Shown here in pieces: positions 1 through 45,577 of a DNA stretch of 52,226 bases (the first letter of the stretch is position 1; every line of letters begins with the position of its first letter). Source of the stretch: a virus. Taxonomy: Duplodnaviria; Caudoviricetes. The notes under the pieces are model-generated. The model saw only the letters and a list, made by a program, of their open reading frames with translations, searched no databases and was not told the origin of the DNA. A program made the translations under genes and the position numbers. The DNA lies in IMG/VR virus record IMGVR_UViG_3300028146_000004, positions 1 through 52,226 of that record. One strand, 5' to 3'.

Positions 1-127
1 GGAGCGATCGCGAACGTCTTGCCCTGCTGCAGCTCGCCCAGCTGACGGTTGACCTCGGAGAGGCGCGCGGCCGTCTTGAGCTCGGCGATCTTGGCGTCCT
101 TCTCCTGCATCTCCGCGAACATCTTCG
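1..127. repeat. Terminal overlap, identical to 52100-52226; circular assembly with a unit length of 52099 bp
   Basis: Exact 127-nt match; the protease reading frame runs across the junction. Confidence 0.95.
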
Positions 128-848
128 CGAAGGCCGGCGAGCCCTCGATCAGAGCCTTCAGCTGCGGGTCCTTGGTCGGATCCGGCGTCGGGTCCTTCAG
201 CTGCTTGACCTCGGCCTCGAGAGCCGTCTTCTCGTCGGTCAGCTTCTTGACCTCGTCCGTGTGCTCAGTCAGCTTCTTGAGGACGTCGTCCTCGGTTGCG
301 GCCTCGGCGAGCCCCAGGGACTCCCTCAGCTTCTTCAGATCCACATCAACCTCCGGTGTGGGTGGTGTTGGGGGAGTTCCCGTGAGCTCCGAAAGGTTCA
401 CGGGGAAGAGGTTCTTCATCCACGGGCGGTTGGTCAGGCCACCGCCGTTCAGGACGTTCTCGTGCTTGGTGCCCTGCGGGTCCGTCCACTCGTCGGAGAA
501 GTCCGCGGAGAAGTAGCGGTACTTCTTCTCCTTGATCTCGTTCTTCGCCGTATCTGTGAAGTCGACCTTGATGTGAAGTCCGCTCTGATCGACCTTGGCG
601 TCCTTGACCCATCCCGCAGCCTGGTTGCCCTTGGCTGGATCGGTCTTGTGGTCGTAGTCGATGTCGGGGTCGATACCACGCGTGTGCTGAGTCACGCTGT
701 TCGCCAACGCGGTGAGCTTCGCTGTATCGAAGTTCAGCTCACCGTGAAGCGGATGCTGGTACGTCCCGAACGGCAGAGCGTGGACCCATGTACCGTCGTC
801 ACTCAGGGTCAGCTTGCTGGTGTCAACCCACCAACCATACTCGGCCAT
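1..848 (-). CDS. Mu gpI-like capsid maturation protease/scaffold, 5' part; continues across the junction to 51799 (about 382 aa in total)
   Basis: Not in the ORF track. ATG at 848 after GGAGG; MAEYGWWVD...DYDH...AAGWV...YRYFSADF...GGGLTNRP are Mu-like protease motifs; in frame with ORF 51799..52221. Confidence 0.88.
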   Translation of the reverse strand, partial: MAEYGWWVDTSKLTLSDDGTWVHALPFGTYQHPLHGELNFDTAKLTALANSVTQHTRGIDPDIDYDHKTDPAKGNQAAGWVKDAKVDQSGLHIKVDFTDTAKNEIKEKKYRYFSADFSDEWTDPQGTKHENVLNGGGLTNRPWMKNLFPVNLSELTGTPPTPPTPEVDVDLKKLRESLGLAEAATEDDVLKKLTEHTDEVKKLTDEKTALEAEVKQLKDPTPDPTKDPQLKALIEGSPAFAKMFAEMQEKDAKIAELKTAARLSEVNRQLGELQQGKTFAIA

Positions 849-899
849 CGCTTGTGGTACCTCCCTCTGATGCTAGTATCACGTAGTCAGTCTAGTAAA

Positions 900-922
900 G
901 CAACAATTCACTATATCTCAGT
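900..922 (-). promoter_or_regulatory. Late-promoter upstream box, copy 1 (ACTGAGATATAGTGAATTGTTGC)
   Basis: Identical 23-mer at 6278-6300; runs into TTGCTT-N17-GATACT upstream of the protease gene. Confidence 0.65.
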
Positions 923-2523
923 TACCCTCCCGAGCTGTCGCGACCTGCGTTTGCCCGCGGAGGAGCTACCGGAGGCTTGGTGTTCTGACGTGGCGGGCCA
1001 ACCTTGGGCGGCTTGGGCTTCTGCGGCTTGTTAGCGTCGGTCGCGCCTGGCTGCCCAGGCGGGGCTGCCTGTCCCGGTGGGGTCGGCTGCCCAGGAAGTT
1101 GCGGTGTCGGCGGCTTGCGCAGAGTAGCCATGTCCATCGGCGGCAAGTCGGTCTCCTGCCGAAGCTGAGCCTCCAGCTTGTCGTCAGGAGTGATCAGGCC
1201 CGCACCAACGAAGTTACGAACTGCAAAGCTCAACGTGCGAAGATCGTCCCACTCACCAATACGACGTGCCTTCAGCTGTGGGTACTTGCCCTGTCTGAAG
1301 TTTAGGTCGACAAGCTGAGGGATGACGAACTTGTTGATGATGCTTGCCACCGAATCAGCCATGTACCGCACTGACTTGTAGAACACGTCGACGATCTGGT
1401 CGCGCGTTCGTGGATCCGTCATGAACGGAGCGAGGATGTTCAGCTGCAGCTGCTGGTCGTGGTGCTCGATCGACTTGATCACGTCGACAGGATTGCCTCC
1501 GAGGACCGCGAACAAGATCTCCCAGTTCGGAGGGAGGATGATGTGCGCTCGGTCGTTCGTACGAAGGTTACGACCCATGTCCTCCGCGAGCTGCTTGTCT
1601 GCTGTCGTGAAGCCTGGAGGAAGCTTGATCACAGGAACGCCGATGCCGTGACGTTCCTTCTGGATCGCGTCGATCTTGTACAACGTGTCCTTGTAGTACC
1701 AGTGCTTGTACGCCGACCTGAGGATGCTCGTACCGCTGAGGTCGCCTGCTTCAGCCTCGAAGCTGAAGATCACCAGCTTGTTGATCGGGATGAACTGCCC
1801 GATTCTGGGAAGTGCTCCGTAGCCTGACAACGAGTCCTGAGCCGTTGTGGAATCGTAGATCGCTATGTTACCGTACGGCACGTACGGCTCCATCACGATT
1901 CCAGCCGGACCACCATTCGGATCGTAGATCCACTCCTGGATGTCGAGAGGGTGTCGCGGTGCTAGCTTCCGCAACATGGCCTTACCGCTCTTCGGGTCGA
2001 TCATGTAGACCTTCTCGAAGACCATGTAGCCGTAGTCGAACATCAGGAGGATGTCGCCAAGCAGCTGGTTCCAGTCGACATTCAGCCGGTTGAACAGGTT
2101 GTCCTCGACAAACTTGGCGATGTTGGTATCGACCGCGCTCTCCGAAGCTGGAACCATGAACCAGTGAGCCGACTGGATAGGCGTCTTCACGAGGCGCAAG
2201 GTGCCTCGGACCGCTCCGTCGTTGCGCTTCATGTCGTAGTACTGACGGATGCCGATCTTGTCGCGGAGCTTCGGGTTCAACTCCTGTCGCGTCCACGCCG
2301 TCCACGGGCTCAGCGACGTGTAACCAAACTCCTGAATCGCCGTCCCGATGTCGATGTTCGGCAGGTTAGACAGCTGCACCGAACCGTGTTGCTTCTCAGC
2401 GACAATGATGTACGCGTCAGGTCCCGGCTGGGCGCCAACGAGCTCGTACTCTCGCAGTGCTTCCTCAAGGCGAATGCTGCGCCACTCGCTCAAGCCTTCA
2501 GTGCCCGTGTCCAGCGGGGCCAT
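922..2523 (-). CDS. Portal protein (Mu gp29/DUF935-like) with a Pro-rich C-terminal tail
   Basis: 533 aa; YGYMVFEKVY, G-SILR-AY--W--K and ERHGIGVP motifs; lies between terminase and protease. Confidence 0.9.
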   Translation of the reverse strand: MAPLDTGTEGLSEWRSIRLEEALREYELVGAQPGPDAYIIVAEKQHGSVQLSNLPNIDIGTAIQEFGYTSLSPWTAWTRQELNPKLRDKIGIRQYYDMKRNDGAVRGTLRLVKTPIQSAHWFMVPASESAVDTNIAKFVEDNLFNRLNVDWNQLLGDILLMFDYGYMVFEKVYMIDPKSGKAMLRKLAPRHPLDIQEWIYDPNGGPAGIVMEPYVPYGNIAIYDSTTAQDSLSGYGALPRIGQFIPINKLVIFSFEAEAGDLSGTSILRSAYKHWYYKDTLYKIDAIQKERHGIGVPVIKLPPGFTTADKQLAEDMGRNLRTNDRAHIILPPNWEILFAVLGGNPVDVIKSIEHHDQQLQLNILAPFMTDPRTRDQIVDVFYKSVRYMADSVASIINKFVIPQLVDLNFRQGKYPQLKARRIGEWDDLRTLSFAVRNFVGAGLITPDDKLEAQLRQETDLPPMDMATLRKPPTPQLPGQPTPPGQAAPPGQPGATDANKPQKPKPPKVGPPRQNTKPPVAPPRANAGRDSSGG

Positions 2524-2637
2524 GTCTTCTACCTCCCACAGGGCGGCTTTGAATAAGTTGCGCCTAAAAAGTTTAGTTAAATGTTCACGTACCGCCTAAA
2601 CCTAAATCGCAAGATCCGTGAAGGCAGATTGTGAAGA

Positions 2638-4116
2638 TTAACGTGTAACTATGCTCAGGTCTGACGAGGAGAAGTACGAATCGTTGCTGCCGAACGCATT
2701 GGCTGCTGCGCTCTGCAGCTCGTCTGCAGTGTAAATCTCGCTCAGCTTGTGACCTGCGCCAAGCTTGAAGAGCATCATGAACGCGTAGCGGATCGCGTCG
2801 AGGGCGTGGTCGTCGTACTTCTGAGCATCTTCCCGTACATTGCGAAGAACACGTCCCGCTGCTGAAGGGGCACGGTAGTTGTTGAACTCCCGGATCGTGT
2901 TACGGCAGCTTGGATCGATGTAGAGCCACGGCTGCTCGATAGGAGTACCGTACTCGTCTGAGACACCCGTTTGCCGAAGCTGAAGGTACGACTTAACCAG
3001 CTCGACGCCTTCGCGCCATCCACTTTGTGCACTGTGCCGCCCCATGGATTGATCTGTAATCTTCGCCGTGCCAGACTTGGATCGTGGGTCTGCATAGCAC
3101 GGCGCAAGCTTGGTAGAGACCGTCAGCACTGATTCAGGCGAAGCTGCGTCGCCGAATGCGAGGTCAATCTTGTAACCGTCTGGCTGTGGGCGATTCTTGA
3201 GGATGGCGATGTGCTCCTCAAGCATCTTGCCACCCTCGTAGTGCTCTCGCCAAACGTACACCTGCCCCCAGGGGCTGATCTGGAACTCGATGCACGCCAA
3301 GGGGTTCGTGAAGCCCCAGTCAAATGCCATGTAATTCGGCCAGTCTGGGCGGTACTTGTGCTGCTTGACGTGGATTACTTCCTGAAACTCGTCGTAGATC
3401 TTGCCTATGAAGGCGTTAAAGAGAGCTGCAATCTCCTGATCGAAGAACGCCGGGAGGACCGTTGCCTTGATGAGCGCGATCTCAGGATCATCCTTGCCAA
3501 GAGGATAGACGTATGGGTTATCCCAGCTAGGAAACTGCCAAGAAGCGTAGTCTCGATACACCTCGTCGGGCGACTGGCCCCATGCCCAGAGGTTGTATAG
3601 CCAGTTGAAACCCTCCGGTGTAGTAGGAAATGTCGCCCACCCTCGCTCATCAGCGAGGGCAGGTCGAATAAAACGCTCCCACGTGTCAGCACGGTGCTTT
3701 GCCGCCTCTGACATGATTGCCCCGTTGAGCTTCTCACCAACCAGGTTCTCTGGGTGGTCCGCACTTCGACACTCAACACGAGTTTGCCAGGGGAATTCAA
3801 TGAACATCTCCCCGCTACGACGGGAATACGCCTTCTTGACGCGCTTGTCTCTGCCCAGCTTCTGCCCGATGATCAAGTCGTCCCAGATGACCCGGAACTC
3901 CTTCTCGGAGAGGTCGTAGGTAGGTCCGACGATCCAGAAGCGCTTCTTCGGCAGGAAGAGTTCGGAACCGAGGTCCCGTGCCGCCATGTGGCTCTTTCCG
4001 AACCGACGACCGCAGCACGGGACCCGGAAACGCTTTCCCGAAGCATGGAACAATGCCTGCTTCGGGTGCGGCTTGTACCCGACCAGGTCAAAGTAGTTCT
4101 GCTTCGACAGCGTCAT
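2638..4116 (-). CDS. terL: Terminase large subunit
   Basis: Walker A GRRFGKS, TTPEG-NW coupling motif, nuclease motifs DWGF and DDHALDAIRY. Confidence 0.95.
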   Translation of the reverse strand: MTLSKQNYFDLVGYKPHPKQALFHASGKRFRVPCCGRRFGKSHMAARDLGSELFLPKKRFWIVGPTYDLSEKEFRVIWDDLIIGQKLGRDKRVKKAYSRRSGEMFIEFPWQTRVECRSADHPENLVGEKLNGAIMSEAAKHRADTWERFIRPALADERGWATFPTTPEGFNWLYNLWAWGQSPDEVYRDYASWQFPSWDNPYVYPLGKDDPEIALIKATVLPAFFDQEIAALFNAFIGKIYDEFQEVIHVKQHKYRPDWPNYMAFDWGFTNPLACIEFQISPWGQVYVWREHYEGGKMLEEHIAILKNRPQPDGYKIDLAFGDAASPESVLTVSTKLAPCYADPRSKSGTAKITDQSMGRHSAQSGWREGVELVKSYLQLRQTGVSDEYGTPIEQPWLYIDPSCRNTIREFNNYRAPSAAGRVLRNVREDAQKYDDHALDAIRYAFMMLFKLGAGHKLSEIYTADELQSAAANAFGSNDSYFSSSDLSIVTR

Positions 4117-4361
4117 CAGGCCGGCGGCTCAGCTGGAGGGGTGTCACCCTTTGGCGCGAACGGTCCCGTGTTCGGGATGGAGAACGTGAGGCCGGCCGCA
4201 GCCAGGCTCGTGACGATCAGCGTCTGCCACTCACCAGCCGTCATGCCATCGACACGGAACACGAAGAACAGCGGAACTGCCGTGCCCAGGAAGGCCATCA
4301 TGGCCTTCAGGTGCCCGTTGATAAAATCTACGATCCCCTTCACGTTGCAACACCCTCCCAC
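4116..4361 (-). CDS. Small two-TM membrane protein, holin-like
   Basis: Two hydrophobic segments with the KAMMAF...T-GEW...IPN pattern; stop overlaps the terL start. Confidence 0.55.
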   Translation of the reverse strand: MGGCCNVKGIVDFINGHLKAMMAFLGTAVPLFFVFRVDGMTAGEWQTLIVTSLAAAGLTFSIPNTGPFAPKGDTPPAEPPA

Positions 4362-4391
4362 TATATAGAAGGAATGCAGTTAGCACCATTG

Positions 4392-4631
4392 CTACTGCGG
4401 TATGTACTTGACGACCGCCAGGTTCTCGTTCGGGTCGTCTCGCCGGTCAATGTTCGTGTAGATCTCAGTCGAGGGTGAGGAAAACCGTCCGACTCGGCAC
4501 GTGATCAGGTTGCCAGCGCCGAGCGCGGTGATACGGGCAGTGCGTACTTTCTGGTACGCTGCATTGCCACCTACAGTCTTGGCCACAAAGACCAGGACGT
4601 GCCGGCCGATCTTTGGCTTCCACGTGCTCAT
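4392..4631 (-). CDS. Hypothetical protein
   Basis: 79 aa, GAGG RBS, fits the operon. Confidence 0.6.
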   Translation of the reverse strand: MSTWKPKIGRHVLVFVAKTVGGNAAYQKVRTARITALGAGNLITCRVGRFSSPSTEIYTNIDRRDDPNENLAVVKYIPQ

Positions 4632-4647
4632 CTGAGCTCCTCAACTG

Positions 4648-5097
4648 CTAGTACGCCTGGCTTCCAGACGAGCTCGGAGTACCCTTGCCGCCTGTGGAGC
4701 TCTTGATCGTGCCGCCGGCGATGCGCTGCCGCTTGCTGTTCACGGCGCTACGTGCCCGCTTCGTGCCGCCGCCACTGGCGCCGCTCGCGCCATCGGCCTG
4801 CATGTTGCTCTTGGTACCCTTGTTGCCGCTTGTCTTCTTGATCGGCGTCGCAGCCGACCGCTTCTTCCCTGGCATCGTCACCTTCTTCAAGTTCGGGTTG
4901 GCCTTCTTCGCTGCTGGTGATGCGCTACGGCTCGCAGCCGCAACCATTGCCTGCCCCTGCTTGAGAGGCACTCCCGCCTTCTTGGCGGCAGAGGCTGCAG
5001 CTGCTGCAAACCCCATGCCCTTTGCCACTCTCTTGCCTCCAGACATTATCCGGTCGGTGTGTACGCCACCGGATCCGGTTGGGTTGTAGACGCCCAT
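4648..5097 (-). CDS. Highly basic K/G/A/S-rich protein, possibly DNA-condensing
   Basis: 149 aa, very Lys-rich, almost no acidic residues. Confidence 0.6.
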   Translation of the reverse strand: MGVYNPTGSGGVHTDRIMSGGKRVAKGMGFAAAAASAAKKAGVPLKQGQAMVAAASRSASPAAKKANPNLKKVTMPGKKRSAATPIKKTSGNKGTKSNMQADGASGASGGGTKRARSAVNSKRQRIAGGTIKSSTGGKGTPSSSGSQAY

Positions 5098-5104
5098 CGC
5101 TACT

Positions 5105-5299
5105 CTACTCCCCTGCAGATGCTCGTATTGCCTTGAGCTCTTCCGTCTTGCGGTTCCGCCTCGTCCTAATGGGTGGCGGTGTCTCCTTACGCGGTGTCCT
5201 TGCTACTGCAGCCTCAACGCGCTGCTGCCTCGGCGTAACCGCCGGCTCCTCTTCAAACCGCTGAGCACGTGATCTGCCCATGGTGCTTTTCACCCTCAC
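5105..5299 (-). CDS. Small Arg-rich hypothetical protein
   Basis: Fills the gap in the operon; start uncertain. Confidence 0.5.
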   Translation of the reverse strand: MRVKSTMGRSRAQRFEEEPAVTPRQQRVEAAVARTPRKETPPPIRTRRNRKTEELKAIRASAGE

Positions 5300-5311
5300 T
5301 GGTTTAACGGG

Positions 5312-5854
5312 TCAACGGTTAAAGTACACGTTCGTCTGGCCGTGTGCTGCTGTAGCCGGCTTGATCGGCCCGCCCGCGTCGAAGGTACCCCTCGGCCCAC
5401 CAAGGATGTGTGGATCGTACACACCGATGCGGTTGTCTGCAGTCGGCAAAGCGCCTGCTGGGGTAGCCGCCCCCGTGTCGTCGAACGACACAGCTGCGAC
5501 TGCGGAGTACCCGATGAACAGCTCGGAGCCACCGACCCTGCCGTAAATGCCGTAGCGAATGCCAGCCTCACCAGGCAGCGTGATCGTGCACTTGTTGGTA
5601 GTGCCCGCCGCAACCACTGTGGTACCAGCTGCCGAGGCCGCCGTCTCCGCCCCGTTCTGCACGCGGGTGATCTTGTAGCTGTACGTCGCCGCAGTCAGCG
5701 TACCACCCGCCCCCGAGTTCGCCACCGCAGGCGCGCTCGGAGTGCCACCCGGTATGTCACCCTGCCGCTTCAGCACGATGACCGCACGCGTGTTCCCTGA
5801 CACATCTCGTAGAATCACCGACCGCTGTATCTTCGGTGGTATCCTATTCGGCAT
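5312..5854 (-). CDS. Putative virion accessory protein with an Ig/FN3-like beta domain
   Basis: GGTLTAATYSYKIT...GAET...YGIYGR...SFDD resembles the N-terminal insert of the major tail protein. Confidence 0.6.
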   Translation of the reverse strand: MPNRIPPKIQRSVILRDVSGNTRAVIVLKRQGDIPGGTPSAPAVANSGAGGTLTAATYSYKITRVQNGAETAASAAGTTVVAAGTTNKCTITLPGEAGIRYGIYGRVGGSELFIGYSAVAAVSFDDTGAATPAGALPTADNRIGVYDPHILGGPRGTFDAGGPIKPATAAHGQTNVYFNR

Positions 5855-5908
5855 TTCTGCTCCTTGTCAACCGGGTGCTTGTCTCAGGCTCCCACAGGGC
5901 CGTAGTCG

Positions 5909-6226
5909 TCAGCGTGCGACCGGGTCGTTCTCGGCGAGCTTGGAGACGAGCGCCATGAGGAGGTCCTCACCAGCACCGCCACTGCTCCAGCTTCCACCGA
6001 CAACGCCGTCGATGATGTACTGAGCAGCCTTCAGCCGAATGCTCTCGTTCGCAGCGTGTGTAGAAAGGAACGCCAGACTCTGTGCCGCCATGGGAGCAGC
6101 GTCCGTCAGGATCTCCCGCGCAAGCTCCATGTTGGTGCGGTCCGGCTTGAGCACTCGCTCCTGCTGCAAGTTGGCGATCGCCTCGTCTGGGATCCAGGAG
6201 AACTGGTCGTCAAATTCGCTAGCCAT
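5909..6226 (-). CDS. Probable terminase small subunit
   Basis: First gene of the leftward operon; helical motif A-NESIRLKAAQYIID. Function inferred from position. Confidence 0.45.
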   Translation of the reverse strand: MASEFDDQFSWIPDEAIANLQQERVLKPDRTNMELAREILTDAAPMAAQSLAFLSTHAANESIRLKAAQYIIDGVVGGSWSSGGAGEDLLMALVSKLAENDPVAR

Positions 6227-6277
6227 CAGGCCTCCTCAGTACCTATGCTCTTATGATCAAGCATGCAAGAGTGAAGG

Positions 6278-6300
6278 GCAACAATTCACTATATCTCAGT
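6278..6300 (-). promoter_or_regulatory. Late-promoter upstream box, copy 2
   Basis: Identical to 900-922; runs into TTGCCC-N17-GATCAT. Confidence 0.65.
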
Positions 6301-6382
6301 AACAATTCTCCTGAATTAAGTCGTATTAGCTCATATACCTTCGTATGAGACTAAATTCACGCTAGCTTAGGCTTAGAGAAAC

Positions 6383-6479
6383 GTCTAACCTACCGTCTAA
6401 CGCGCTTAGACTGTTATTAGACTCGATGAATGTGCTATCTACGCCGCTTTAGGTACAGAATCGTCTAACAAACGTCTAA
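6383..6479 (-). repeat. Six-box TTAGAC element A
   Basis: Boxes at 6383, 6395, 6406, 6417, then a 40-bp spacer, then 6463, 6474. Confidence 0.85.
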
Positions 6480-6572
6480 TTGAAAAACCACTGCTTACCC
6501 TTGAACACTGGCACTTTGAATTTTGCCTGCTTGCCATTCCAACGCCCGGGCAGGTAAAAGATCTTGAATCTA

Positions 6573-6581
6573 TGATATAAT
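6573..6581 (+). promoter_or_regulatory. Extended -10 promoter (TGATATAAT) for the first early operon; predicted start near 6588
   Basis: Matches the TGnTATAAT consensus; the first leader hairpin begins at 6588. Confidence 0.7.
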
Positions 6582-6587
6582 ATAGTT

Positions 6588-6741
6588 ATCAGCCAGTTAC
6601 AGTACACGGCTGATGCAGCGTCCATCAGCTACACGCGCGGACGTTCGTCCAACGGTAAACGATCCACGGGCTACGGCCCGACGGATGCTGTATCGGGGAG
6701 ACGGGAAGGTGTAGCTACGGGTTCTTGATAACTAAACAGTG
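6588..6741 (+). ncRNA. Structured leader RNA with a pseudoknot and an rrn boxA-like sequence
   Basis: Pairings 6612-6623/6683-6694 and 6627-6634/6709-6716; hairpins 6639-6650 and 6667-6680; GTTCTTGATAACTAAACAG at 6721. Confidence 0.6.
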
Positions 6742-6752
6742 AGAGTGTTACG

Positions 6753-7241
6753 TCGACGGGTGGCGTTGTGAGCCCCGGAGGTAAGGGTAGGTAGACATAA
6801 TCCGAACCTTACAGAAGGAGACCACAATGTCCGCTAAGATCAACATCGACGACGAGACCAAGGCCGCTTACCTCGAGCTCCTCGAGGGAGTGCTTACCGA
6901 GGACACGTACACCATTTACGGGCTTGCCAAGGTTGTTAACCTTGTGCTGGCAGCGAACGGAGCCGCTGCGATCCGCCCGCAGATGATGTACAACTACGCC
7001 CGCAACGGCTTGATCGTGAAGGGTGTGAAGATCTTCGGTGAGAACCTCCGGGACCTGACAAAGTCCGAGGTTGCCGAGTTCGTTATCCGGTACATCACGC
7101 GTGCAGGGTACGTCGTCAAGATCAGCGCGCCTGCAGCACAGGACGTCATTCCTGGGCTGGAGGACCTAACCGCCTAATTCACCAGTGAGGAGGTAGTACT
7201 GAGTTAGACTTACCTCCGGGGTTCACAAGGCCACCTGTCGA
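6753..7241 (+). repeat. 33-bp inverted repeat (6753-6785 / 7209-7241) enclosing ORF 6827..7177
   Basis: 30 Watson-Crick pairs, 2 G-U, 1 mismatch. Confidence 0.9.
6827..7177 (+). CDS. Putative HTH DNA-binding early protein
   Basis: AGGAG RBS; TIYGLAKVV...IRPQMMYNYARNGLI resembles a winged or MerR-type HTH. Confidence 0.65.
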   Translation: MSAKINIDDETKAAYLELLEGVLTEDTYTIYGLAKVVNLVLAANGAAAIRPQMMYNYARNGLIVKGVKIFGENLRDLTKSEVAEFVIRYITRAGYVVKISAPAAQDVIPGLEDLTA

Positions 7242-7244
7242 ACA

Positions 7245-7546
7245 CGATGTGATCGTCTTACATCGCCGGTGCCCGTAACGTCAACCGAAAGGAGCGAGGT
7301 TATGGACGCTAAGTGGACGAGGTACCTCGACGAGCAAGACTTGTGGAGGTTGCACAGTGAGACGTGCAACGATTGCACGGATCACCGAGACGAGGACGAC
7401 ATCTGGAGGATCGAGTTGACCGCGACGTGCCCAGTAGGGTGGGAAGCGATCGGTAAGATCCGCCAGATCGAGATCGAGTTGGGAATCGTACCTACTAACC
7501 GGTAAGTAACCCCCACGGGTACCGGCGGTGCAAGATGATCACATCG
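7245..7546 (+). repeat. 32-bp inverted repeat (7245-7276 / 7515-7546) enclosing ORF 7302..7505
   Basis: 28 Watson-Crick pairs, 3 G-U, 1 mismatch. Confidence 0.9.
7302..7505 (+). CDS. Small putative Zn-binding protein (HxxxCxxC...CxxGW)
   Basis: RBS before ATG 7302; motif shared with 7599..7805. Confidence 0.7.
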   Translation: MDAKWTRYLDEQDLWRLHSETCNDCTDHRDEDDIWRIELTATCPVGWEAIGKIRQIEIELGIVPTNR

Positions 7547-7549
7547 ACA

Positions 7550-7854
7550 GATCCGAGTCGTGCTAAGACCGGCTGGGCCAACCTGAAAGGAGACGGATAT
7601 GAATGGTTGGCGCGAGGTTAACCCACAAGACGAAGACCTGAATGAGGCCAGAAAGGCAATCCGGGACCTGATGCGTCACGTGCCTACGTGCGGCACCTGC
7701 CAAGCGTGGTCACAATATGACGCCGCGGTGTACACCCTGGCGTGCCTCGAAGGTTGGACGTTGTACCACATCGTGATCAACGGACAGTCCCCAGTCAAGT
7801 TCTAGTAGCGTAGGCTAACATCCAAGCCCAGCCGGTCCTAGGGTGACTCGGATC
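7550..7854 (+). repeat. 29-bp inverted repeat (7550-7578 / 7826-7854) enclosing ORF 7599..7805
   Basis: 25 Watson-Crick pairs, 2 G-U, 2 mismatches. Confidence 0.9.
7599..7805 (+). CDS. Small putative Zn-binding protein (HxxxCxxC...CxxGW)
   Basis: GAAAGGAG RBS; paralog-like to 7302..7505. Confidence 0.7.
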   Translation: MNGWREVNPQDEDLNEARKAIRDLMRHVPTCGTCQAWSQYDAAVYTLACLEGWTLYHIVINGQSPVKF

Positions 7855-7877
7855 ACCCCCGATGAAAGGAGGGTCCC

Positions 7878-8129
7878 ATGGCTAGGGAGATCTACCAGGT
7901 TCACCCGTTCACGGTGCGCCCACTGCTACGGCGTCACGCGAAGCGTGATGTCCAGTTCCAGATGGAACGCCTTGAGCGAGAGGGCCAGATCGAGCCGGTG
8001 TGCGTCAAGCCACCGGTGATGGGCCAGTACGAGATGGATGTAGACCATCCTGACTACTTCTACTGGTCCCCCGAGATCGTGGAGGCCGCGGTACGGCTAG
8101 GTTGGGAGACCATCCTGGTGACGTACTAA
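7878..8129 (+). CDS. Hypothetical protein
   Basis: GAAAGGAGG RBS; followed by a terminator. Confidence 0.7.
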   Translation: MAREIYQVHPFTVRPLLRRHAKRDVQFQMERLEREGQIEPVCVKPPVMGQYEMDVDHPDYFYWSPEIVEAAVRLGWETILVTY

Positions 8130-8134
8130 AAGAG

Positions 8135-8166
8135 AGCCCCCGGTGAAAGCCGGGGGCTTTTCTTTT
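8135..8166 (+). terminator. Intrinsic terminator
   Basis: AGCCCCCGG-TGAAAG-CCGGGGGCT followed by a T tract. Confidence 0.85.
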
Positions 8167-8700
8167 GCCCCCAAAGGGGTCCAAAATTCGGCGCAAACCT
8201 CGCTCCACGCCCCGCTCGGGCCATCGGATCTAAGGTGAAACGTCTTTATCCCCAAAGGGGGCCAAAAATAGGGCGGCGGGTCGCTCCACTCGGGCCTGGG
8301 CCATCGGGGCAGGGAGCGGTACGGCGGCGAAGGGGGTCCAGCGCCCGGGTCTGGCCCCAAGGGGGCCATTTTTAGGGCGGCACCTGCCTACACGGGGGCC
8401 ACGGGGCATCGGAGCCTAAATCCCACATGCCCATAGGGGTCAGATTGCGGGCCGCAGGGAGCGGGATTTAGGCTCAAAAGTACCGGCGAAGGGGCGGGTA
8501 TCTACCTCCCTATCTATCTCCCGGGAGATAGATATCCCCACCCTCCTTATAAAGCCTAAGTGTTACTGTGTATAGGCGACCACCTCCTCTCTCCTCTCAC
8601 TATATCCTTGTTAATAAACCTATTAGTATTTGGTTATAGATAAAACCAGGGGAGATAGATAGGGAGATATCAACGGGTCGTTTCAAAAGCACGGAACCGA
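8167..8700. other. Non-coding repeat region; candidate replication origin or genome-end region
   Basis: GC-rich degenerate repeats, a perfect 24-bp palindrome at 8511-8534, and a 17-bp inverted repeat (8506-8522/8650-8666) around an AT-rich tract. Confidence 0.5.
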
Positions 8701-8740
8701 GCGACCGGTTTAGACCGATAGATCCTAGAAAATCGACCCC

Positions 8741-8770
8741 TTGTGTTCCAAAGGGGACGTAGTATATAAT
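8741..8770 (+). promoter_or_regulatory. Early promoter TTGTGT-N18-TATAAT
   Basis: Member of the repeated promoter family. Confidence 0.65.
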
Positions 8771-8803
8771 AGAAATAGAGACCTTAGATCCCGGGAGGAA
8801 GAT

Positions 8804-9310
8804 ATGGGAGACTACGTGTTCCCACTGGTTAGCGATGACGACATTGCCCGAGCGGTAGACAGTGGGCCAAGAAGGCCGCTATCTACCTCCCTACCGGTAA
8901 CGCTACCGGGAGTAAGTAACGAGCCTTCCCTCCCTATCTCCCTATCTACCGGTAGGGAGGGAGGTAATGCCAAAACGTCCAACTCGACGGCCCCAAGTAT
9001 CGGCACAACGACGTCGAAGTATCCCTGGGCTGAATGGCTAGACGGGAAGGCGCACGTAATTGTGCGGGGAACCCACTACTCGGTACCAACTCGGAACATG
9101 GTAGTGCAGCTCCATAACAGGGGGCTGGCGCAGGTTGAGACCATGTACGTGTATACCGAAACGCTCGAGGGTACGGCTGGCATTTACTTCCAGTTCTACA
9201 AGACCAAGGAGGAGCGGGACGAACGTAGGGTGCAGACCAAGAACGAAGAGCGCCTTGCTCGAGAGCGGTATGCCAACGTACGAGCCGAGGACGGCAGGGT
9301 GGATGGCTAA
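8804..9310 (+). CDS. Hypothetical protein with a KYPWxxWLDG motif
   Basis: GGAGG RBS before ATG 8804. Confidence 0.65.
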   Translation: MGDYVFPLVSDDDIARAVDSGPRRPLSTSLPVTLPGVSNEPSLPISLSTGREGGNAKTSNSTAPSIGTTTSKYPWAEWLDGKAHVIVRGTHYSVPTRNMVVQLHNRGLAQVETMYVYTETLEGTAGIYFQFYKTKEERDERRVQTKNEERLARERYANVRAEDGRVDG

Positions 9311-9515
9311 GTATGATTGGGACCACTTGTGTTGTGGCGAGACCTTTACCCTGTATACCGGATTTGCAGACGATCCCAGTACGTACTTGGACTGTCACCC
9401 TAGAATGTTTGCCACCATACTAGGTCGGATGGCGAGACGAAGAGGGAAGGAGGTCGAACTTGAATTCCTGGGTACGGGAGACAGCGTAACAGGAATCAGG
9501 TTCCGGTGTGTATAA
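9303..9515 (+). CDS. Hypothetical protein (KYDW motif), probable paralog of the upstream gene's C-terminus
   Basis: Start overlaps the upstream stop; MAKYDWDHL...G. Confidence 0.6.
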   Translation: MAKYDWDHLCCGETFTLYTGFADDPSTYLDCHPRMFATILGRMARRRGKEVELEFLGTGDSVTGIRFRCV

Positions 9516-30817: not shown

Positions 30818-31569
30818 GGGCTGCACTGATTCCGCCGATGGGAGCTGAGTACTCCGCACTCAGCTCCGACATTCACCTTGTCCTGCCACTCAAGGAGTGT
30901 CGAGACAATCCCGACTACCTCGCAGCGTACCGTCACGCATGGCGTCGAGGTGACTACCTCATCCTCGACAACGGCTGCGCCGAAGGCAAGATCGTCGACA
31001 ATCGAGTACTAATCCAATTCGCGAGAACGATTAACGCTCACGAGGTCGTAGCGCCTGATGTGATGGGCGACGGACCTCTTACACTTCGTCGTACGGTCGA
31101 GTTCGTTCGGTACGTACCCGAAGCTCGTAACTACTCGATCATGGGTGTTCTTCAAGGTGAGAACATCCAACAAGTCCTACGACTCGCTGAGGCATTTGCT
31201 CAGCTACCCACCATCACTGCAGTTGGCATTCCGAAGATTCTCGTGTCAACAATTGACCATGAGGTACGCGCTCGCGTAGCAGCGAACATCCTCAAGGTCT
31301 ACGGCAACCGCTTCGAGATCCACCTGCTCGGTCTCAATAGAGACTTCCAGACAGAAATGCTGGACGTTACGTTCCCTCCTGAGATCCGATCGATGGACTC
31401 AGCGCAACCGTACAAGTTCACCGAAGCTGGCATCGCCATGACGGCCGTCAACGTAACAGGCCGTGGCGAGCTAACAAGGCGTCGGCACGACTACTTCAAA
31501 GCGCCACGCAAGTACGACGCCGGCCTACTAGCTTCGAACATCGAGACGTTTATGAGTTGGTGCCGATGA
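30814..31569 (+). CDS. TGT-fold guanine transglycosylase, DpdA-like
   Basis: LDNG, PDV, VLQG, HLLG and SMDS match the order of TGT active-site motifs; next to folE/que genes. Confidence 0.7.
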   Translation: MRAALIPPMGAEYSALSSDIHLVLPLKECRDNPDYLAAYRHAWRRGDYLILDNGCAEGKIVDNRVLIQFARTINAHEVVAPDVMGDGPLTLRRTVEFVRYVPEARNYSIMGVLQGENIQQVLRLAEAFAQLPTITAVGIPKILVSTIDHEVRARVAANILKVYGNRFEIHLLGLNRDFQTEMLDVTFPPEIRSMDSAQPYKFTEAGIAMTAVNVTGRGELTRRRHDYFKAPRKYDAGLLASNIETFMSWCR

Positions 31570-33971
31570 AGGCTGAAGCGTCCGGCGCTGACTGTCAGCA
31601 CTGCCCGCTGCGAGACGCCGGGTATGCCCCAACCAAACGCCCACAGGGAGGGCGGCCTCTTTCCAATGGCGAACGAAAGATAGTAATCGTTGGAGAAGCT
31701 CCAGGGTTCGTTGAGACGCAATTCGGTTCGCCCTTCTCGGGACCCTCAGGCAAGCTCCTCAACACCGTACTCAAGTACCAAGGCATCGAACGCAAGGAAG
31801 TGATGCTGACCAATGCATGCCTATGTAGGCCTCCGGATAACGCTACTCCTCCTAAAGCGGCGGTGGTTGCGTGTAAGACTCGTCTCGCGAACGAGATCCG
31901 ACAATTCGCAGGCGATGACGCAGTCGACGTTATTGCTCTTGGCGGGACCGCGGGAACGCTACTGGTGGACGATCCGGGGACAATTACCACGCTACGTGTC
32001 GGTCCTCCAAGGAAGCCCGCCGCGTGGCTTGCGCGTAGCTGGGGAGATGCTTCTGTACAACCTGATGTGCGAGTTATCCCTACCTGGCACCCCGCGTACT
32101 GTCTCCGTAACGCTGACGCGTTCCCGTCCCTCGTTAGCGACATTGGTAAGGTAAGGGAGACCAGCCGTGAGCCTTGGCGTGAACCTGAGTGGAGAATATT
32201 TGACGATCCGGATCGAGCGGTTGCCGTCATCGCTGAGCTGGAGCGAATTGAAGGCCCTCTCGTCATCGACATTGAAGTCGGTTTTGACAAGGACGAGGCC
32301 TTCGACCATCCGAACAACTATTCTCTTCTCTGCGTGGGAATTGCTTTTGCAAGAGGACAGGCAGTGGTTCTGGGTGAGCGTGCACTTGCCGACGACGACG
32401 TGGTCGATGGACTGCGGCGACTCCTACGAAGCCACCGACTCATCGGACACAACGGCAAGTTTGACCTTGCCGGACTTTGGCCAAAGCTCGGAAGCCTCGA
32501 ACTCTGGTTCGACACCATGCTCGCCAGCTATGTCCTCGATGAGCGGCCTGGCCAGCACGGTCTTAAAGTTCTTGCCGTCGAGAAACTAGGAGCTCCGAAG
32601 TACGATGAGGAAATTCGAAAGTACGTGCCTCGCCGAGGAAATTATGGAGATATTCCTCGGCCAATCCTCTACCGGTATAACGCGTACGACGTTGCATGCA
32701 CATGGGAGTTGTACGAGCTGTTCACTGAAAGCATGCATCGACAAGGGCTCCGGGGAGTCCATGACTTTTTGGTCAAAGCAGCCAACCAGCTCATGTACCT
32801 CGAGCTCAATGGGATTGCAATTGACAGAGAGTATATGCGCCGACTCGAGTCCGAATACCTCGAACGGCTCAACGAGATCGAGGTGGAACTGGACCAGATT
32901 GTTAAGGAGTCGACAGGTCATCTAGACGACGGTCCAATGCAGCACATCAACCCGCGTTCACCGGCGCAGGTGAAACTCTACCTGGAGACACAAGGTGTTA
33001 ACGTTCAGTCTACGAACCAGGAAACACTCGAGTTCCTGCTCGAGCGACTGCCTAAGGGGAGTGCCAAACAGCGTTTTGTATCAGTTCTTCTTCGGTACAG
33101 ACGCCAACACAAGCTCTACAGTACATACATCGTTGGAATCCGCAAACGGCTTTACCGCGGACGTATTTACACTACTTACCTTCTCCACGGAACGACAAGC
33201 GGCCGACTGGCAAGTCGGAATCCGAATCTGCAGAACATTGTTCGTGATAAGGAGATCCGACGGCAGTTTGGTGTCACACACCCTGACCACGTACTGATCC
33301 AGTGCGACTACAAACAGGCCGAGGCTCGCGTCATGGCTACGCTCTCTCAGGATGAATACCTAAGAGAGATCCTAAGCCGTAACGAGGAGGGCTACGACTT
33401 CTTCAACGAGCTATCCGATCAGCTATACGGAGTTGGTCAATGGGGTAAAGAGGAGCGCATCAGGACGAAGGCGTTCTTCTACGGCATCGGCTACGGCCGA
33501 GAAGCGTACTCGATCGGGCTCGAGTACGGCCTTGACCCTCGTGAAGCGCAACGACGATACGACGAGTTCGTCGGGCTCATCCCGAACGTTGTCAAATGGC
33601 AAGAGGCTATACGTAGCCAAGTTCTGAGGGGAGAACCTCTTGTCTCACCCTTCGGACGACGCAGACGGTTCTGGCTCATCACCGACCAGAACAAAAAAGA
33701 TGTCCTTAACGAAGCGTTGTCCTATCTGCCGCAATCAACTGCAAGTGACATCTGCCTATCCGCTCTTATTCGCGTGCGACCCTTGCTACGTGGTTTGGGT
33801 TTCCTTCGACTCACAATTCACGATGCTCTCGTTGTTGAGTGTCATGGAGACCGTACCGAGGAAGTGGGACAGCTACTTAGTACGACCATGGCAGCCGAAG
33901 GTCGACACTTTACCGACTATGTTCCTTTCCCAGTAGACATCAGCATCGGCAAGAGTTGGGGAGATCTGTGA
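31566..33971 (+). CDS. Family A DNA polymerase with an N-terminal family-4 uracil-DNA-glycosylase domain and a 3'-5' exonuclease
   Basis: CxxCPL, GEAPG, TN-CLCRP, HPAY; DIE, HNGKFD, YNAYD; DYKQAE, R---K---YG, IHD. Confidence 0.92.
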   Translation: MKAEASGADCQHCPLRDAGYAPTKRPQGGRPLSNGERKIVIVGEAPGFVETQFGSPFSGPSGKLLNTVLKYQGIERKEVMLTNACLCRPPDNATPPKAAVVACKTRLANEIRQFAGDDAVDVIALGGTAGTLLVDDPGTITTLRVGPPRKPAAWLARSWGDASVQPDVRVIPTWHPAYCLRNADAFPSLVSDIGKVRETSREPWREPEWRIFDDPDRAVAVIAELERIEGPLVIDIEVGFDKDEAFDHPNNYSLLCVGIAFARGQAVVLGERALADDDVVDGLRRLLRSHRLIGHNGKFDLAGLWPKLGSLELWFDTMLASYVLDERPGQHGLKVLAVEKLGAPKYDEEIRKYVPRRGNYGDIPRPILYRYNAYDVACTWELYELFTESMHRQGLRGVHDFLVKAANQLMYLELNGIAIDREYMRRLESEYLERLNEIEVELDQIVKESTGHLDDGPMQHINPRSPAQVKLYLETQGVNVQSTNQETLEFLLERLPKGSAKQRFVSVLLRYRRQHKLYSTYIVGIRKRLYRGRIYTTYLLHGTTSGRLASRNPNLQNIVRDKEIRRQFGVTHPDHVLIQCDYKQAEARVMATLSQDEYLREILSRNEEGYDFFNELSDQLYGVGQWGKEERIRTKAFFYGIGYGREAYSIGLEYGLDPREAQRRYDEFVGLIPNVVKWQEAIRSQVLRGEPLVSPFGRRRRFWLITDQNKKDVLNEALSYLPQSTASDICLSALIRVRPLLRGLGFLRLTIHDALVVECHGDRTEEVGQLLSTTMAAEGRHFTDYVPFPVDISIGKSWGDL

Positions 33972-36350: not shown

Positions 36351-36707
36351 TTAGCTTTGGCTCTCCTCCCTTCTATGTTGTCCCTCACGCTTCCGTACTG
36401 GCTCAATGAGGTCGACAGGCTTCTGCTGGGCAATGCTTAGGAGCCTAATAGGCCACCAGGTCTGAGCCACGTATGCCAGGTACAAAGCTAGGGATACCAC
36501 CTTCCTACCTGGCCAGTCTCCAAAGATCTGGTTGGCAATGATCAGCAGGAACAAGGCGGCTAGATTACTATATACCACCACGAAGAATCTACCTGCGTAA
36601 GTATCTCGCCACCGCCCCCCTGACAGAACCCAGTAACGGGTAACAAAGGTCAGACAACCCACCAATCCCATTATTGTCACCAGCAGTGACAGCATCCTGT
36701 AGATCAT
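36351..36707 (-). CDS. Three-TM holin-like membrane protein
   Basis: Three hydrophobic helices with a W-----GR motif. Confidence 0.7.
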   Translation of the reverse strand: MIYRMLSLLVTIMGLVGCLTFVTRYWVLSGGRWRDTYAGRFFVVVYSNLAALFLLIIANQIFGDWPGRKVVSLALYLAYVAQTWWPIRLLSIAQQKPVDLIEPVRKREGQHRREESQS

Positions 36708-37164: not shown

Positions 37165-37173
37165 GCTTCCCCC

Positions 37174-37884: not shown

Positions 37885-37886
37885 CC

Positions 37887-40164: not shown

Positions 40165-40173
40165 GCCTCCCCC

Positions 40174-41292: not shown

Positions 41293-41295
41293 AGT

Positions 41296-45569: not shown

Positions 45570-45577
45570 GTCTGCTC

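What the first reader, a model, noticed from the sequence alone, without database searches (positions are those of the whole stretch)
6753..7854. Three genes, each looped out of its own long RNA stem, joined by ACA linkers
Seen: three consecutive early ORFs with their RBS are each enclosed by a different inverted repeat: 6753-6785/7209-7241 (33 bp), 7245-7276/7515-7546 (32 bp) and 7550-7578/7826-7854 (29 bp). Adjacent stems are separated by exactly ACA (7242-7244 and 7547-7549). Seven of the 11 non-Watson-Crick positions are G-U on the + strand, which points to selection on the transcript. The stems share length but not sequence. Established: rRNA operons bracket 16S and 23S with such stems for RNase III; T7 early mRNA is cut by RNase III, but at local hairpins. 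Inference: a processing system that releases each gene as an end-paired, nuclease-resistant (possibly circular) mRNA, or a modular gene-cassette format. I know no described phage example.
Basis: partly seen in the sequence, partly recalled or inferred. Interest (0 to 1): 0.88.

Follow-up and report, generated by a model that had tools for sequence, protein, structure and literature searches.

The report
Phage genes packaged like ribosomal RNA
An uncultured soil phage wraps each of its first three genes in a long RNA stem that copies the stem bacteria use to cut ribosomal RNA out of its precursor, so the phage probably borrows the host's rRNA machinery to make stable single-gene messages.

Summary
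The three inverted repeats are real, lie exactly where stated, are the three best in this complete 52-kb phage genome and are far beyond chance. Each encloses one Shine-Dalgarno site plus one small ORF. In 37 of 51 testable distinct relatives the ORF1 homologue is bracketed the same way by a stem of unrelated sequence (covariation), with up to four directly adjacent modules.

Two new features emerged.
- Stems carry a conserved central irregularity: mismatch, 2 bp, mismatch, mostly C.A/A.C, 14-20 bp from the loop-side end. Elsewhere G.U outnumbers A.C 64:31, so the + strand RNA is what is selected.
- 37 of 39 arrays are preceded by a boxA-like element.

Both features belong to the actinobacterial pre-16S rRNA leader-trailer helix. 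The geometry is the same. In one relative 19 of 22 arm bases are identical to a 16S leader, and window 6719-6741 matches a 16S leader at 20 of 23.

Best reading: the early operon imitates an rRNA operon. Nus factors load at boxA, then host RNase III excises each cistron as an end-paired mRNA. No RNA data exist, so cleavage is inferred. The ACA linker is specific to this window, and circular mRNA has no support. I found no description of this in print.

The parts
6573..6581 (+). Probable early promoter, extended -10 type (TGATATAAT). A transcript start near 6588 is inferred.
   Evidence: Read from the sequence. The block ATATAATATAGTTA is shared with relatives L035/L036, L041, L042, L079 and L092 at the same place upstream of their arrays. 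The two-hexamer consensus scan found no promoter here, so this rests on sequence reading and conservation only.
6719..6741 (+). boxA/boxC-like rrn leader element (GGGTTCTTGATAACTAAACAGTG). It is single-stranded and sits 12 nt upstream of stem 1.
   Evidence: 20 of 23 bases are identical to the 16S leader arm of an actinobacterial genome (G121). 17 of 19 (one gap) match the Bacillus testis 16S leader. The same motif lies within -45 to +20 of the first stem in 37 of 39 distinct relatives. It has no significant downstream pairing partner.
6753..6785 (+). Stem 1, 5' arm
   Evidence: G.G mismatch at stem position 13, G.U at positions 6 and 20.
6827..7177 (+). ORF1 (116 aa, RPQMMYNY family, function unknown). 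Ribosome-binding site GAAGGAG upstream.
   Evidence: No Pfam hit. AlphaFold2 model with pLDDT 79.5 has no PDB fold match at E <= 0.001.
7209..7241 (+). Stem 1, 3' arm
7242..7244 (+). Linker ACA between stems 1 and 2
   Evidence: Not conserved as ACA in relatives.
7245..7276 (+). Stem 2, 5' arm
   Evidence: A.C mismatch at position 16 (17 bp from the loop side), followed 3 positions later by U.G, as in the pre-16S helix.
7302..7505 (+). ORF2 (67 aa, Cys-rich). Ribosome-binding site AAAGGAG.
   Evidence: 49% identical to the cargo of module 3 of L007.
7515..7546 (+). Stem 2, 3' arm
7547..7549 (+). Linker ACA between stems 2 and 3
7550..7578 (+). Stem 3, 5' arm
   Evidence: G.U, U.G, G.G, then 3 bp, then A.C at the centre.
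7599..7805 (+). ORF3 (68 aa, CxxC). Ribosome-binding site AAAGGAG.
   Evidence: Related to the cargo of module 2 of L007 (36% over 36 aa).
7826..7854 (+). Stem 3, 3' arm
7878..8129 (+). ORF4 (83 aa), last gene of the operon, not bracketed
   Evidence: No relative found in viral contigs.
8135..8165 (+). Intrinsic-terminator-like G+C hairpin followed by TTTTCTTTT
   Evidence: Sequence. The hairpin is listed by the terminator scan, which reported it on the - strand. Weak Rfam matches to terminator-bearing sRNAs only.

Best explanation
The early operon of this phage, probably a phage of an actinobacterium, is built as an imitation of a host rRNA operon. A promoter is followed by a boxA-like leader element. 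Then come three cassettes, in each of which a ribosome-binding site plus a small ORF takes the place of 16S rRNA inside a roughly 30-bp leader-trailer helix. Shown here: the helices exist, are maintained by compensatory change on the + (mRNA) strand, and carry the same central irregularity (mismatch, 2 bp, A.C mismatch, then a 14-17 bp inner helix) as actinobacterial pre-16S helices. They are preceded by an rrn-leader-like motif. Inferred: (1) the boxA-like RNA loads the host NusB/S10 antitermination complex, giving fast, termination-resistant transcription and helping distant arms to pair; (2) host RNase III cuts both arms at the central irregularity; (3) each cistron is released as a monocistronic mRNA whose 5' and 3' ends stay paired in a 13-17 bp duplex, shielding it from end-dependent nucleases, while the outer half-arms and 0-4 nt linkers are discarded.
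For: Reality and conservation:
- Stems are far beyond chance.
- 37 of 51 testable distinct ORF1 homologues are bracketed.
- 76 representative stems pair at 94% with their own partner, against 53% with arms of other stems. 5' arms are only 41% alike.
- RNAalifold on 22 ORF1 modules gives 11 outer pairs, each with 4-12 double-sided compensatory changes.
- Each loop holds exactly one + strand ORF with a ribosome-binding site.
- Two cultured actinophage genomes (2 x 50 kb) gave 0 hits of score 19 or more.

Strand specificity:
- Outside the centre, G.U 64 vs A.C 31 (p = 9e-4).
- A.C is concentrated 14-20 bp from the loop side: 71 of 102 (Fisher p = 9e-10), with fixed orientation.
- 37 of 76 stems have mismatch, 2 bp, mismatch.

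rRNA likeness:
- 6 of 9 actinobacterial pre-16S helices examined show the same mismatch, 2 bp, A.C pattern followed by a 15-18 bp inner helix.
- None of the 17 non-actinobacterial helices did.
- L041 arms are 19/22 and 13/16 identical to a 16S leader and trailer. Window 6719-6741 is 20/23 identical to a 16S leader.
- The exact 16-mer CTTGARAACTCAAYAG occurs in 9 of 120 16S loci, all Actinomycetota, and in two phages.

boxA:
- The motif lies next to the first stem in 37 of 39 arrays, against 0.003 expected per window.
- Relative L026 matches the published consensus GYTCTTTAANA exactly.

Literature (passages read):
- The Aquifex pre-16S stem (~33 bp) has an A-C pair next to its RNase III cut (PMC3074117).
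- The E. coli RNase III site lies in the leader-trailer helix, overlapping boxC (PMC10250234).
- B. subtilis RNase III cuts mRNA duplexes whose arms are up to 505 nt apart (PMC11780869).
Against: - No RNA evidence at all: 24 of 24 public runs holding this stretch are DNA contigs, so neither transcription as one unit, pairing in vivo nor cleavage is shown.
- In E. coli and B. subtilis, positions next to RNase III cuts are usually paired (>90% at -2/+2; PMC6212723, PMC11780869). A double mismatch at the proposed cut is therefore atypical and could equally be a cleavage antideterminant.
- I could not find where RNase III cuts the actinobacterial pre-16S helix.
- The window's own three stems are degenerate versions of the motif. 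Only stem 3 has two central mismatches, and those are 3 bp apart.
- The window's boxA-like element is one T shorter than the published consensus. The consensus promoter scan found nothing.
- 14 of 51 testable ORF1 homologues have no stem of score 19 or more. Most are distant homologues; L027 and L055 carry bracketing stems just below the cut-off (scores 18.5 and 17.5).
- Stems are related by descent, so the counts are not independent events.
- The host is inferred, not known.
Confidence: 0.6

Rival explanations
1. The stems form in the mRNA but are not cut. They act as structural clamps that insulate each cistron's folding, hide the transcript from end-dependent decay or keep stop and start codons close. 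The central double mismatch is then an antideterminant that lets RNase III bind without cleaving, or stops it from acting.
For: Positions flanking RNase III cuts are normally paired in E. coli and B. subtilis. Structural motifs that allow RNase III binding but block cleavage are mentioned in the Aquifex paper (PMC3074117 introduction). In E. coli the leader-trailer helix matters for 30S biogenesis independently of RNase III (PMC10250234).
Against: The same irregularity sits in pre-16S helices, which are the classic RNase III substrates. The Aquifex pre-16S hairpin with an A-C pair next to the cut is cleaved. The 13-17 bp on each side of the centre fits an RNase III dimer footprint; that figure is my own recollection, not taken from a call.
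Confidence: 0.15
2. The stems are cut at the conserved centre, but by another structure-specific ribonuclease, either from the host or one of the phage's unknown early proteins, not by RNase III.
For: A twofold-symmetric motif (both arms read 5'-C-N-N-A-3') suggests a dimeric enzyme but does not name it. Many early ORFs have no known family.
Against: No ribonuclease family was found among the 53 phage proteins scanned. The likeness to pre-16S helices points to the enzyme that processes those.
Confidence: 0.1
3. The pseudo-rRNA transcript is mainly a decoy. Abundant early RNA carrying boxA and several pre-rRNA-like helices soaks up Nus factors, RNase III or ribosome-assembly factors and so depresses host ribosome production. 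The enclosed ORFs are secondary.
For: Sequence-level mimicry of the rrn leader and helix. Several copies per transcript.
Against: Every loop keeps an intact ORF with a ribosome-binding site, and the ORFs are conserved as proteins. Most stems have diverged from the rRNA sequence while keeping only the shape, which is not what a sequence decoy needs.
Confidence: 0.07
4. The repeats act at the DNA level: as terminal inverted repeats of mobile gene cassettes, as substrates for inversion by recombination, or as hairpins in single-stranded DNA.
For: Module order differs between the window and L007, and each stem moves with its cargo. One 77-nt contig of depth 2 switches strand near stems 1 and 2 (record 13 of run X23).
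Against: Mismatches are strand-asymmetric: G.U exceeds A.C outside the centre, and the central C.A/A.C has a fixed orientation. Double-stranded DNA would not select for that. Arms of different modules share no terminal sequence. No integrase or transposase family was found among the 53 proteins scanned. All loops hold the ORF on the same strand as its neighbours. No joints or inversions appeared in the contigs of 4 runs, though contigs drop rare variants.
Confidence: 0.05

Closest known systems
Pre-rRNA leader-trailer helices of bacterial rrn operons, cut by RNase III and preceded by boxA/boxC
   Same: A long-range helix of about 30 bp is formed by the sequences flanking the product, with several helices in tandem on one transcript. 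The central irregularity includes an A.C pair. A boxA-like element lies just upstream or inside the 5' arm. In relatives L041/L042 the arm sequences are near copies of the actinobacterial 16S leader and trailer.
   Different: The enclosed product is a translated ORF of 50-140 codons with its own ribosome-binding site, not an rRNA. Loops are 190-500 nt rather than 1.5-3 kb. Neighbouring helices are only 0-4 nt apart. Up to four are directly adjacent. It is carried by a phage.
Phage T7 early mRNA processing by RNase III (sites such as R1.1)
   Same: A phage early polycistronic transcript made by host RNA polymerase is proposed to be cut by host RNase III into single-gene mRNAs that are thereby protected (review PMC8708148, passages).
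   Different: T7 sites are local hairpins between genes, with internal loops and single-strand cuts. Here the two arms lie on either side of the whole gene, so both mRNA ends would end up in one duplex.
Lambdoid nut sites (boxA plus boxB with protein N) and rrn boxA antitermination
   Same: A boxA-type sequence sits in the leader of a phage early transcript. One relative matches GYTCTTTAANA exactly.
   Different: No boxB/N system is evident. The element is of the rrn (actinobacterial or Bacillus-like) type and is coupled to processing helices. Nus factor binding is untested.
Long-range RNase III targets in Bacillus subtilis mRNAs (Taggart et al. 2025, PMC11780869)
   Same: Intramolecular duplexes of 10-36 bp with arms up to 505 nt apart are cut with a 2-nt stagger (section read).
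   Different: Those are scattered cellular sites. They are not described there as arrays that each bracket one complete cistron, and positions near the cut are consistently paired.
Integron gene cassettes (attC) and T4-type PeSL regulatory cassettes
   Same: Small accessory genes are organised as modules that can change order between relatives. The description of both systems is recalled, not from a call.
   Different: attC is a local folded site recognised by an integrase, and PeSLs are direct repeats of a promoter plus stem-loop. Here every module has its own unique inverted repeat, and no recombinase family was seen among the 53 proteins scanned.

Membership tests
rRNA-type leader-trailer (RNase III processing) helix | Sequences flanking the product pair over roughly 20 bp or more | tested here: met
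   29-33 bp in the window. Representative stems in relatives are 27-46 bp.
rRNA-type leader-trailer (RNase III processing) helix | Pairing is maintained by compensatory change while the sequence drifts | tested here: met
   Own pairing 94% vs cross pairing 53%. 11 pairs show 4-12 double-sided changes among 22 sequences.
rRNA-type leader-trailer (RNase III processing) helix | Same internal geometry as the host-group pre-16S helix (mismatch, 2 bp, A.C mismatch, ~15 bp inner helix) | tested here: met
   True for the family: 37 of 76 stems have the double mismatch and the positional profile matches. 6 of 9 actinobacterial pre-16S helices show it. The window's own stems keep it only in part.
rRNA-type leader-trailer (RNase III processing) helix | Cut by RNase III on both strands with a 2-nt 3' overhang | not testable with these tools
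   No RNA run holds the region.
rRNA-type leader-trailer (RNase III processing) helix | Encloses a ribosomal RNA | tested here: not met
   Loops hold protein-coding ORFs. No SSU rRNA in the genome. So this is a mimic, not a member.
boxA (Nus factor loading) element | Match to a published boxA consensus (GYTCTTTAANA; E. coli UGCUCUUUAACA; B. subtilis AUGAUCUUUGAAA) | tested here: inconclusive
   The window has GTTCTTGATAA, one T short, the same form as actinobacterial 16S leaders. Relatives L026, L035/L036, L080 and L081 match GYTCTTTRANA exactly. Consensus sequences come from PMC5725501 and PMC13753749.
boxA (Nus factor loading) element | Located in the transcribed leader, downstream of the promoter and upstream of the product | tested here: met
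   37 of 39 arrays have it within -45 to +20 of the first stem. A promoter-like block lies upstream.
boxA (Nus factor loading) element | Binds NusB/S10 and confers antitermination | not testable with these tools
   Needs binding assays or reporter assays.
T7-type RNase III site | Local hairpin with an internal loop between cistrons | tested here: not met
   Arms are 238-423 nt apart and enclose the cistron.
Transposon or integron cassette | Shared terminal or recombination-site sequence and a cognate recombinase | tested here: not met
   Arms are about 41% alike, near random. No integrase or transposase family among the 53 proteins scanned. The 27 remaining ORFs, mostly structural, were not scanned.
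Archaeal bulge-helix-bulge splicing motif | Two 3-nt bulges separated by 4 bp (definition recalled) | tested here: not met
   The motif here is two 1x1 mismatches separated by 2 bp. Promoter, ribosome-binding sites and terminator are bacterial in type.

The most novel reading that the evidence does not exclude
A clade of soil phages expresses its first genes from a pseudo-rRNA operon. The transcript recruits the host's rrn antitermination complex through a boxA mimic. Each protein-coding cistron is then excised by the pre-rRNA processing machinery exactly as 16S rRNA is, giving mRNAs with duplexed ends. In this reading the rRNA maturation pathway is hijacked wholesale for mRNA production, and the cassette form lets early genes be shuffled as self-contained expression units.
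Probability: 0.45. Interest if true: 0.9.

Novelty: new variant of a known kind. Interest (0 to 1): 0.85.

Why it matters
If true, this is a new way for a virus to take over host gene expression. Instead of carrying its own polymerase or nuclease, the phage dresses its messages as ribosomal RNA precursors. It would then inherit the fastest, termination-proof transcription mode of the cell and a ready-made processing step that yields stable single-gene mRNAs.

It would extend RNase III and Nus-factor biology in Actinomycetota, where both are poorly mapped. It gives a compact natural design (boxA plus a 30-bp bracket with a defined central mismatch) that could be tested as an insulator and stabiliser part for gene expression in actinobacteria. 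It also offers a sequence signature (rrn-leader mimicry) for assigning hosts to uncultured phages. The conserved C.A / 2 bp / A.C centre, shared with pre-16S helices, makes a concrete prediction about where actinobacterial RNase III cuts.

Tried and rejected
- **Cultured relatives.** blastn of 6500-8200 and tblastn of ORF1 against 50,697 phage records found nothing. PolA and terminase give only 27-37% hits.
- **Relatives of ORF4 and prophages.** ORF4 has no relative in viral contigs. No ORF1-family prophage was found in genome contigs.
- **Known RNA families.** Rfam on 6000-9000 gave only weak sub-threshold hits at the terminator.
- **RNA evidence.** No RNA holder was listed among 24 runs.
- **Structural variants.** Laying contigs of 4 DNA runs showed no variant letters, indels or joints. 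This says nothing on rare forms.
- **Outer helix.** An outer helix pairing 6719-6745 with 8594-8620 (27 nt, 70%) was rejected. The best duplex of the leader element with 7856-9400 is -20.7 kcal/mol, against a median of -23.4 for 200 random segments.
- **MazF-type cutting at ACA linkers.** Rejected, because ACA is not conserved.
- **ORF1 as an RNA-processing protein.** No Pfam hit. The AlphaFold2 model found 0 PDB matches at E <= 0.001.
- **Phage-encoded RNase III or RNA ligase.** None among the 53 proteins scanned.
- **The leader motif in other phage lineages.** TYCTTGAYAACTAAACAG found 3 viral contigs, about the number I estimated for chance, and none had stems next to the motif.
- **Calibrating the cut site on Bacillus.** The Bacillus testis helix spans +28 to +54 from the 16S 3' end, while the published B. 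subtilis site is about +67. The species differ and nothing could be concluded.
- **Cleavage sites in actinobacterial pre-16S RNA.** I did not find them. The papers of Arnvig 2004 and Beuth 2005 are not held.
- **Prior description in print.** Searches for a phage rRNA-operon mimic or gene-bracketing stems found nothing relevant.
- **Supplements.** Supplementary tables of PMC6212723 and PMC11780869, which list pair frequencies next to RNase III cuts, were not available and could bear on the mismatch question.
Full report
**What the window is.** The window is a complete IMG/VR virus record of 52,226 bp with direct terminal repeats. Genes on the - strand at 1-6226 and 36351-52226 include a terminase and a tape-measure-like protein. 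A + strand block from 6827 to about 36156 holds early and replication genes: PolA fused to a UDG-like domain, a DUF3987 primase-helicase, Sak4, an exonuclease and a queuosine-type 7-deazaguanine gene set. No cultured phage is close. The 15 best terminase rows are all phages of Arthrobacter, Microbacterium or Gordonia, at 34-37% identity. This is the first hint that the host is an actinobacterium.

**The observation.**
- The three inverted repeats are at the stated coordinates. They are the three best of 86 pairs in the genome.
- They score 25.5, 22.0 and 19.0 in my ungapped scan. In 30 dinucleotide shuffles, only 2 produced a single hit of 19 or more.
- They are separated by ACA and all appear in the minimum-free-energy fold. 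The + strand folds 27 kcal/mol better than the - strand.
- Each loop holds one ORF with a GGAG-type ribosome-binding site 20-41 nt after the 5' arm and a stop codon 9-31 nt before the 3' arm.
- A fourth ORF (7878-8129) is not bracketed and is followed by a terminator-like hairpin.

**Conservation.**
- Searching viral and metagenome contigs with ORF1 and then with an ORF1-family alignment gave 57 distinct homologues.
- Of the 51 with enough flanking DNA, 37 are bracketed by a stem of score 19 or more. The 14 without are mostly the most distant homologues.
- Loci carry up to four stems, with up to four directly adjacent.
- Every loop holds one + strand ORF with a ribosome-binding site. The cargo is the RPQMMYNY family, sometimes twice per genome, or small Cys-rich proteins.
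- The 76 representative stems pair at 94% with their own partner but at 53% with arms of other stems, even at the best of nine offsets. 5' arms are only 41% alike.
- RNAalifold on 22 ORF1 modules recovers the outer half of the helix. All 11 pairs show double-sided compensatory changes in 4-12 sequences.
- Two cultured actinophage genomes used as negative controls gave no hit of 19 or more in 100 kb.
- The order of modules 2 and 3 is swapped between the window and L007, and the stems go with their cargo.
- Junctions between adjacent stems are -1 to 4 nt in 22 of 24 unique cases and are A-rich. ACA is found only in this window.

**Which strand, and a conserved centre.**
- Raw counts across relatives gave about as many A.C as G.U mismatches.
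- Printing the duplexes showed why. Most stems have a fixed central irregularity of two mismatches separated by two Watson-Crick pairs. It is present in 37 of 76 stems. In 21 of these both mismatches are of the A.C type, with both arms reading 5'-C-N-N-A-3'.
- Counted from the loop-side end, A.C with the A in the 5' arm peaks at 14-17 bp, and C.A peaks three positions further out. Positions 1-12 are almost purely Watson-Crick or G.U.
- In the central zone there are 71 A.C, 21 G.U and 28 other non-Watson-Crick pairs. Outside it there are 31, 64 and 28 (Fisher p = 9e-10; G.U vs A.C outside, p = 9e-4).
- So the helix is selected on the + strand, and the centre is a deliberate, twofold-symmetric feature. 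These counts are over stems related by descent and are not independent events.

**The link to ribosomal RNA.** I fetched 120 16S loci with the 27F primer pattern and looked for the helices that bracket 16S.
- The actinobacterial helices read, for example, GCGTCCGCTCCTTGAGAACTCAACAGCGTGCT with the pattern |||x|||c|||:|x||c||:||||||||||||. That is a G.G mismatch, 2 bp, an A.C mismatch, then a 15-bp inner helix.
- The same pattern was found in 6 of 9 actinobacterial loci with usable geometry: L109, L175, L214, L100, and G121 and G363. The three Streptomyces loci have a bulge instead.
- None of the 17 non-actinobacterial loci showed it in its best ungapped helix.
- The stems of the more distant phages L041, L042 and L092 are near copies of this helix in sequence. 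L041 is 19/22 identical in the 5' arm and 13/16 in the 3' arm, with the A.C and U.G pairs at the same places.
- The exact 16-mer CTTGARAACTCAAYAG occurs in 9 of the 120 16S loci, all Actinomycetota, and in two of the phages.

**The leader element.**
- In the window the same rrn-leader motif lies not in a stem but 12 nt upstream of stem 1. Positions 6719-6741 are 20/23 identical to the 16S leader of genome G121, and 17/19 (one gap) to that of Bacillus testis.
- It has no significant pairing partner downstream.
- A motif of this type lies within -45 to +20 of the most upstream stem in 37 of 39 distinct loci. The - strand background predicts 0.003 per such window.
- It overlaps what is called boxA in rrn leaders. 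Relative L026 matches the gamma-proteobacterial consensus GYTCTTTAANA exactly, and L081 contains the UCUUUGAAA core of the B. subtilis element shown to bind NusB.
- Upstream lies a conserved promoter-like block, ATATAATATAGTTA. In the window this is TGATATAAT at 6573-6581. The simple two-hexamer scan did not call it.

**Mechanism.** The architecture is promoter, boxA-like element, tandem helices each enclosing a product, then a terminator. That is the architecture of an rrn operon, with ORFs in place of rRNAs.
- From papers I read in passages or sections: RNase III cuts the leader-trailer helices of pre-rRNA, and in E. coli its site overlaps boxC within the helix (PMC10250234).
- The ~33-bp Aquifex pre-16S stem carries an A-C pair next to its RNase III cut and is cleaved (PMC3074117).
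- B. subtilis RNase III cuts mRNA duplexes of 10-36 bp whose arms are up to 505 nt apart (PMC11780869).
- Human Dicer, another RNase III enzyme, uses a mismatched C or A next to its cut as a positioning signal (PMC10685087). This is an analogy only.
- I therefore infer that host RNase III cuts both arms at the central irregularity. A cut symmetric about the dyad with a 2-nt 3' overhang would fall 5' of the mismatched A on each arm; this is my own geometric inference. It would release each cistron with a 13-17 bp terminal duplex.
- I also infer that the boxA-like element loads Nus factors.
- Against this, positions next to RNase III cuts are usually paired in E. coli and B. subtilis. The centre could therefore be an antideterminant, and the stems uncut clamps. 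Only RNA end mapping can decide.

**Rivals.** DNA-level explanations are disfavoured by four results: the strand asymmetry, the lack of shared termini, the absence of recombinase families among the 53 proteins scanned, and the absence of inverted modules in relatives or in contigs of four runs. A decoy role is possible but does not explain the conserved ORFs. Circular mRNA has no support.

**Novelty.** Five searches of the paper library for phage mRNAs bracketed by processing stems, or for phage mimicry of rRNA operons, found nothing relevant. The parts are known: RNase III processing of phage early RNA, leader-trailer helices and boxA. Their combination around protein-coding cistrons, in tandem, in a phage, appears undescribed. 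I rate it a new variant of a known kind. All mechanistic steps beyond sequence and covariation are inferences. Eight genomes are flagged unpublished, and no statement here rests on them.

Noticed in passing
window 8170-8970: The non-coding stretch after the early terminator has two repeat sets. One is copies of a CCCCAAAGGGG(T/G)CCAAAA-type motif near 8170-8385. The other is TATCTCCCTATCTA-type units in direct and inverted orientation at 8503-8522, 8650-8669, 8880-8899 and 8935-8966. They could be operator, iteron or origin repeats. Relatives have their own repeated words (ATCCGGACATA, AAATCGT) in the same area.
   Followed up: no
window + strand block 8741-36156 (single ORFs not mapped): The phage encodes QueC, GTP cyclohydrolase I, QueD/PTPS and a QueE-like radical SAM protein, plus a glutamine amidotransferase-like protein. 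That is a 7-deazaguanine pathway, suggesting modified bases in its DNA.
   Followed up: no
window 31557-33971: The family A DNA polymerase carries an N-terminal uracil-DNA-glycosylase-superfamily domain ahead of the 3'-5' exonuclease domain.
   Followed up: no
L025 4890-4923, L026 4895-4928, L031 4915-4943, L034 4790-4815; window 6693-6712: G-rich tracts of the GGGGGAGGG type sit just upstream of the stem that brackets ORF1 in several relatives. A weaker version (GGGGAGACGGGAAGG) is in the window's leader.
   Followed up: no
window 6588-6720 and the leaders of L028, L032, L045, L049, L057, L061: Leaders between promoter and boxA-like element contain small hairpins followed by a recurring GCTACAC word. 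This could be a boxB-like or other protein-binding feature.
   Followed up: no
5' arms of many stems, e.g. L025 4076-4106, L031 4124-4153, L055 1837-1869: The central motif of the 5' arms often reads G-Y-T-T-C-T-A-A-G or T-C-C-T-G-A-A-G. This resembles a shortened boxA core, so each module might carry its own weak boxA. It could also be a by-product of the C..A mismatch rule.
   Followed up: no
window 7172-7201 and 7278-7303 (run X23, record 13): One 77-nt contig of depth 2 joins 7278-7303 (+) to 7172-7201 (-) with 21 other letters between. That is a strand switch flanking the junction of stems 1 and 2. It is most likely an assembly artefact, but it is the only hint of a DNA rearrangement.
   Followed up: no
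L014 3935-4246 and 4915-5343; L022 1228-1509 and 3980-4312: Some relatives carry two paralogues of the ORF1 family, each in its own bracket. Many other cargo proteins are 50-75 aa with CxxC pairs, zinc-ribbon-like.
   Followed up: partly
L120 2442-2468 / 4127-4153; L106, L165, L166: In the small sample of non-actinobacterial 16S loci, the pre-16S helix often has a single central mismatch 11-17 bp from the rRNA-proximal end: G.G in Bacillus testis, one mismatch in three alphaproteobacteria. A central irregularity may be a general mark of these helices.
   Followed up: partly
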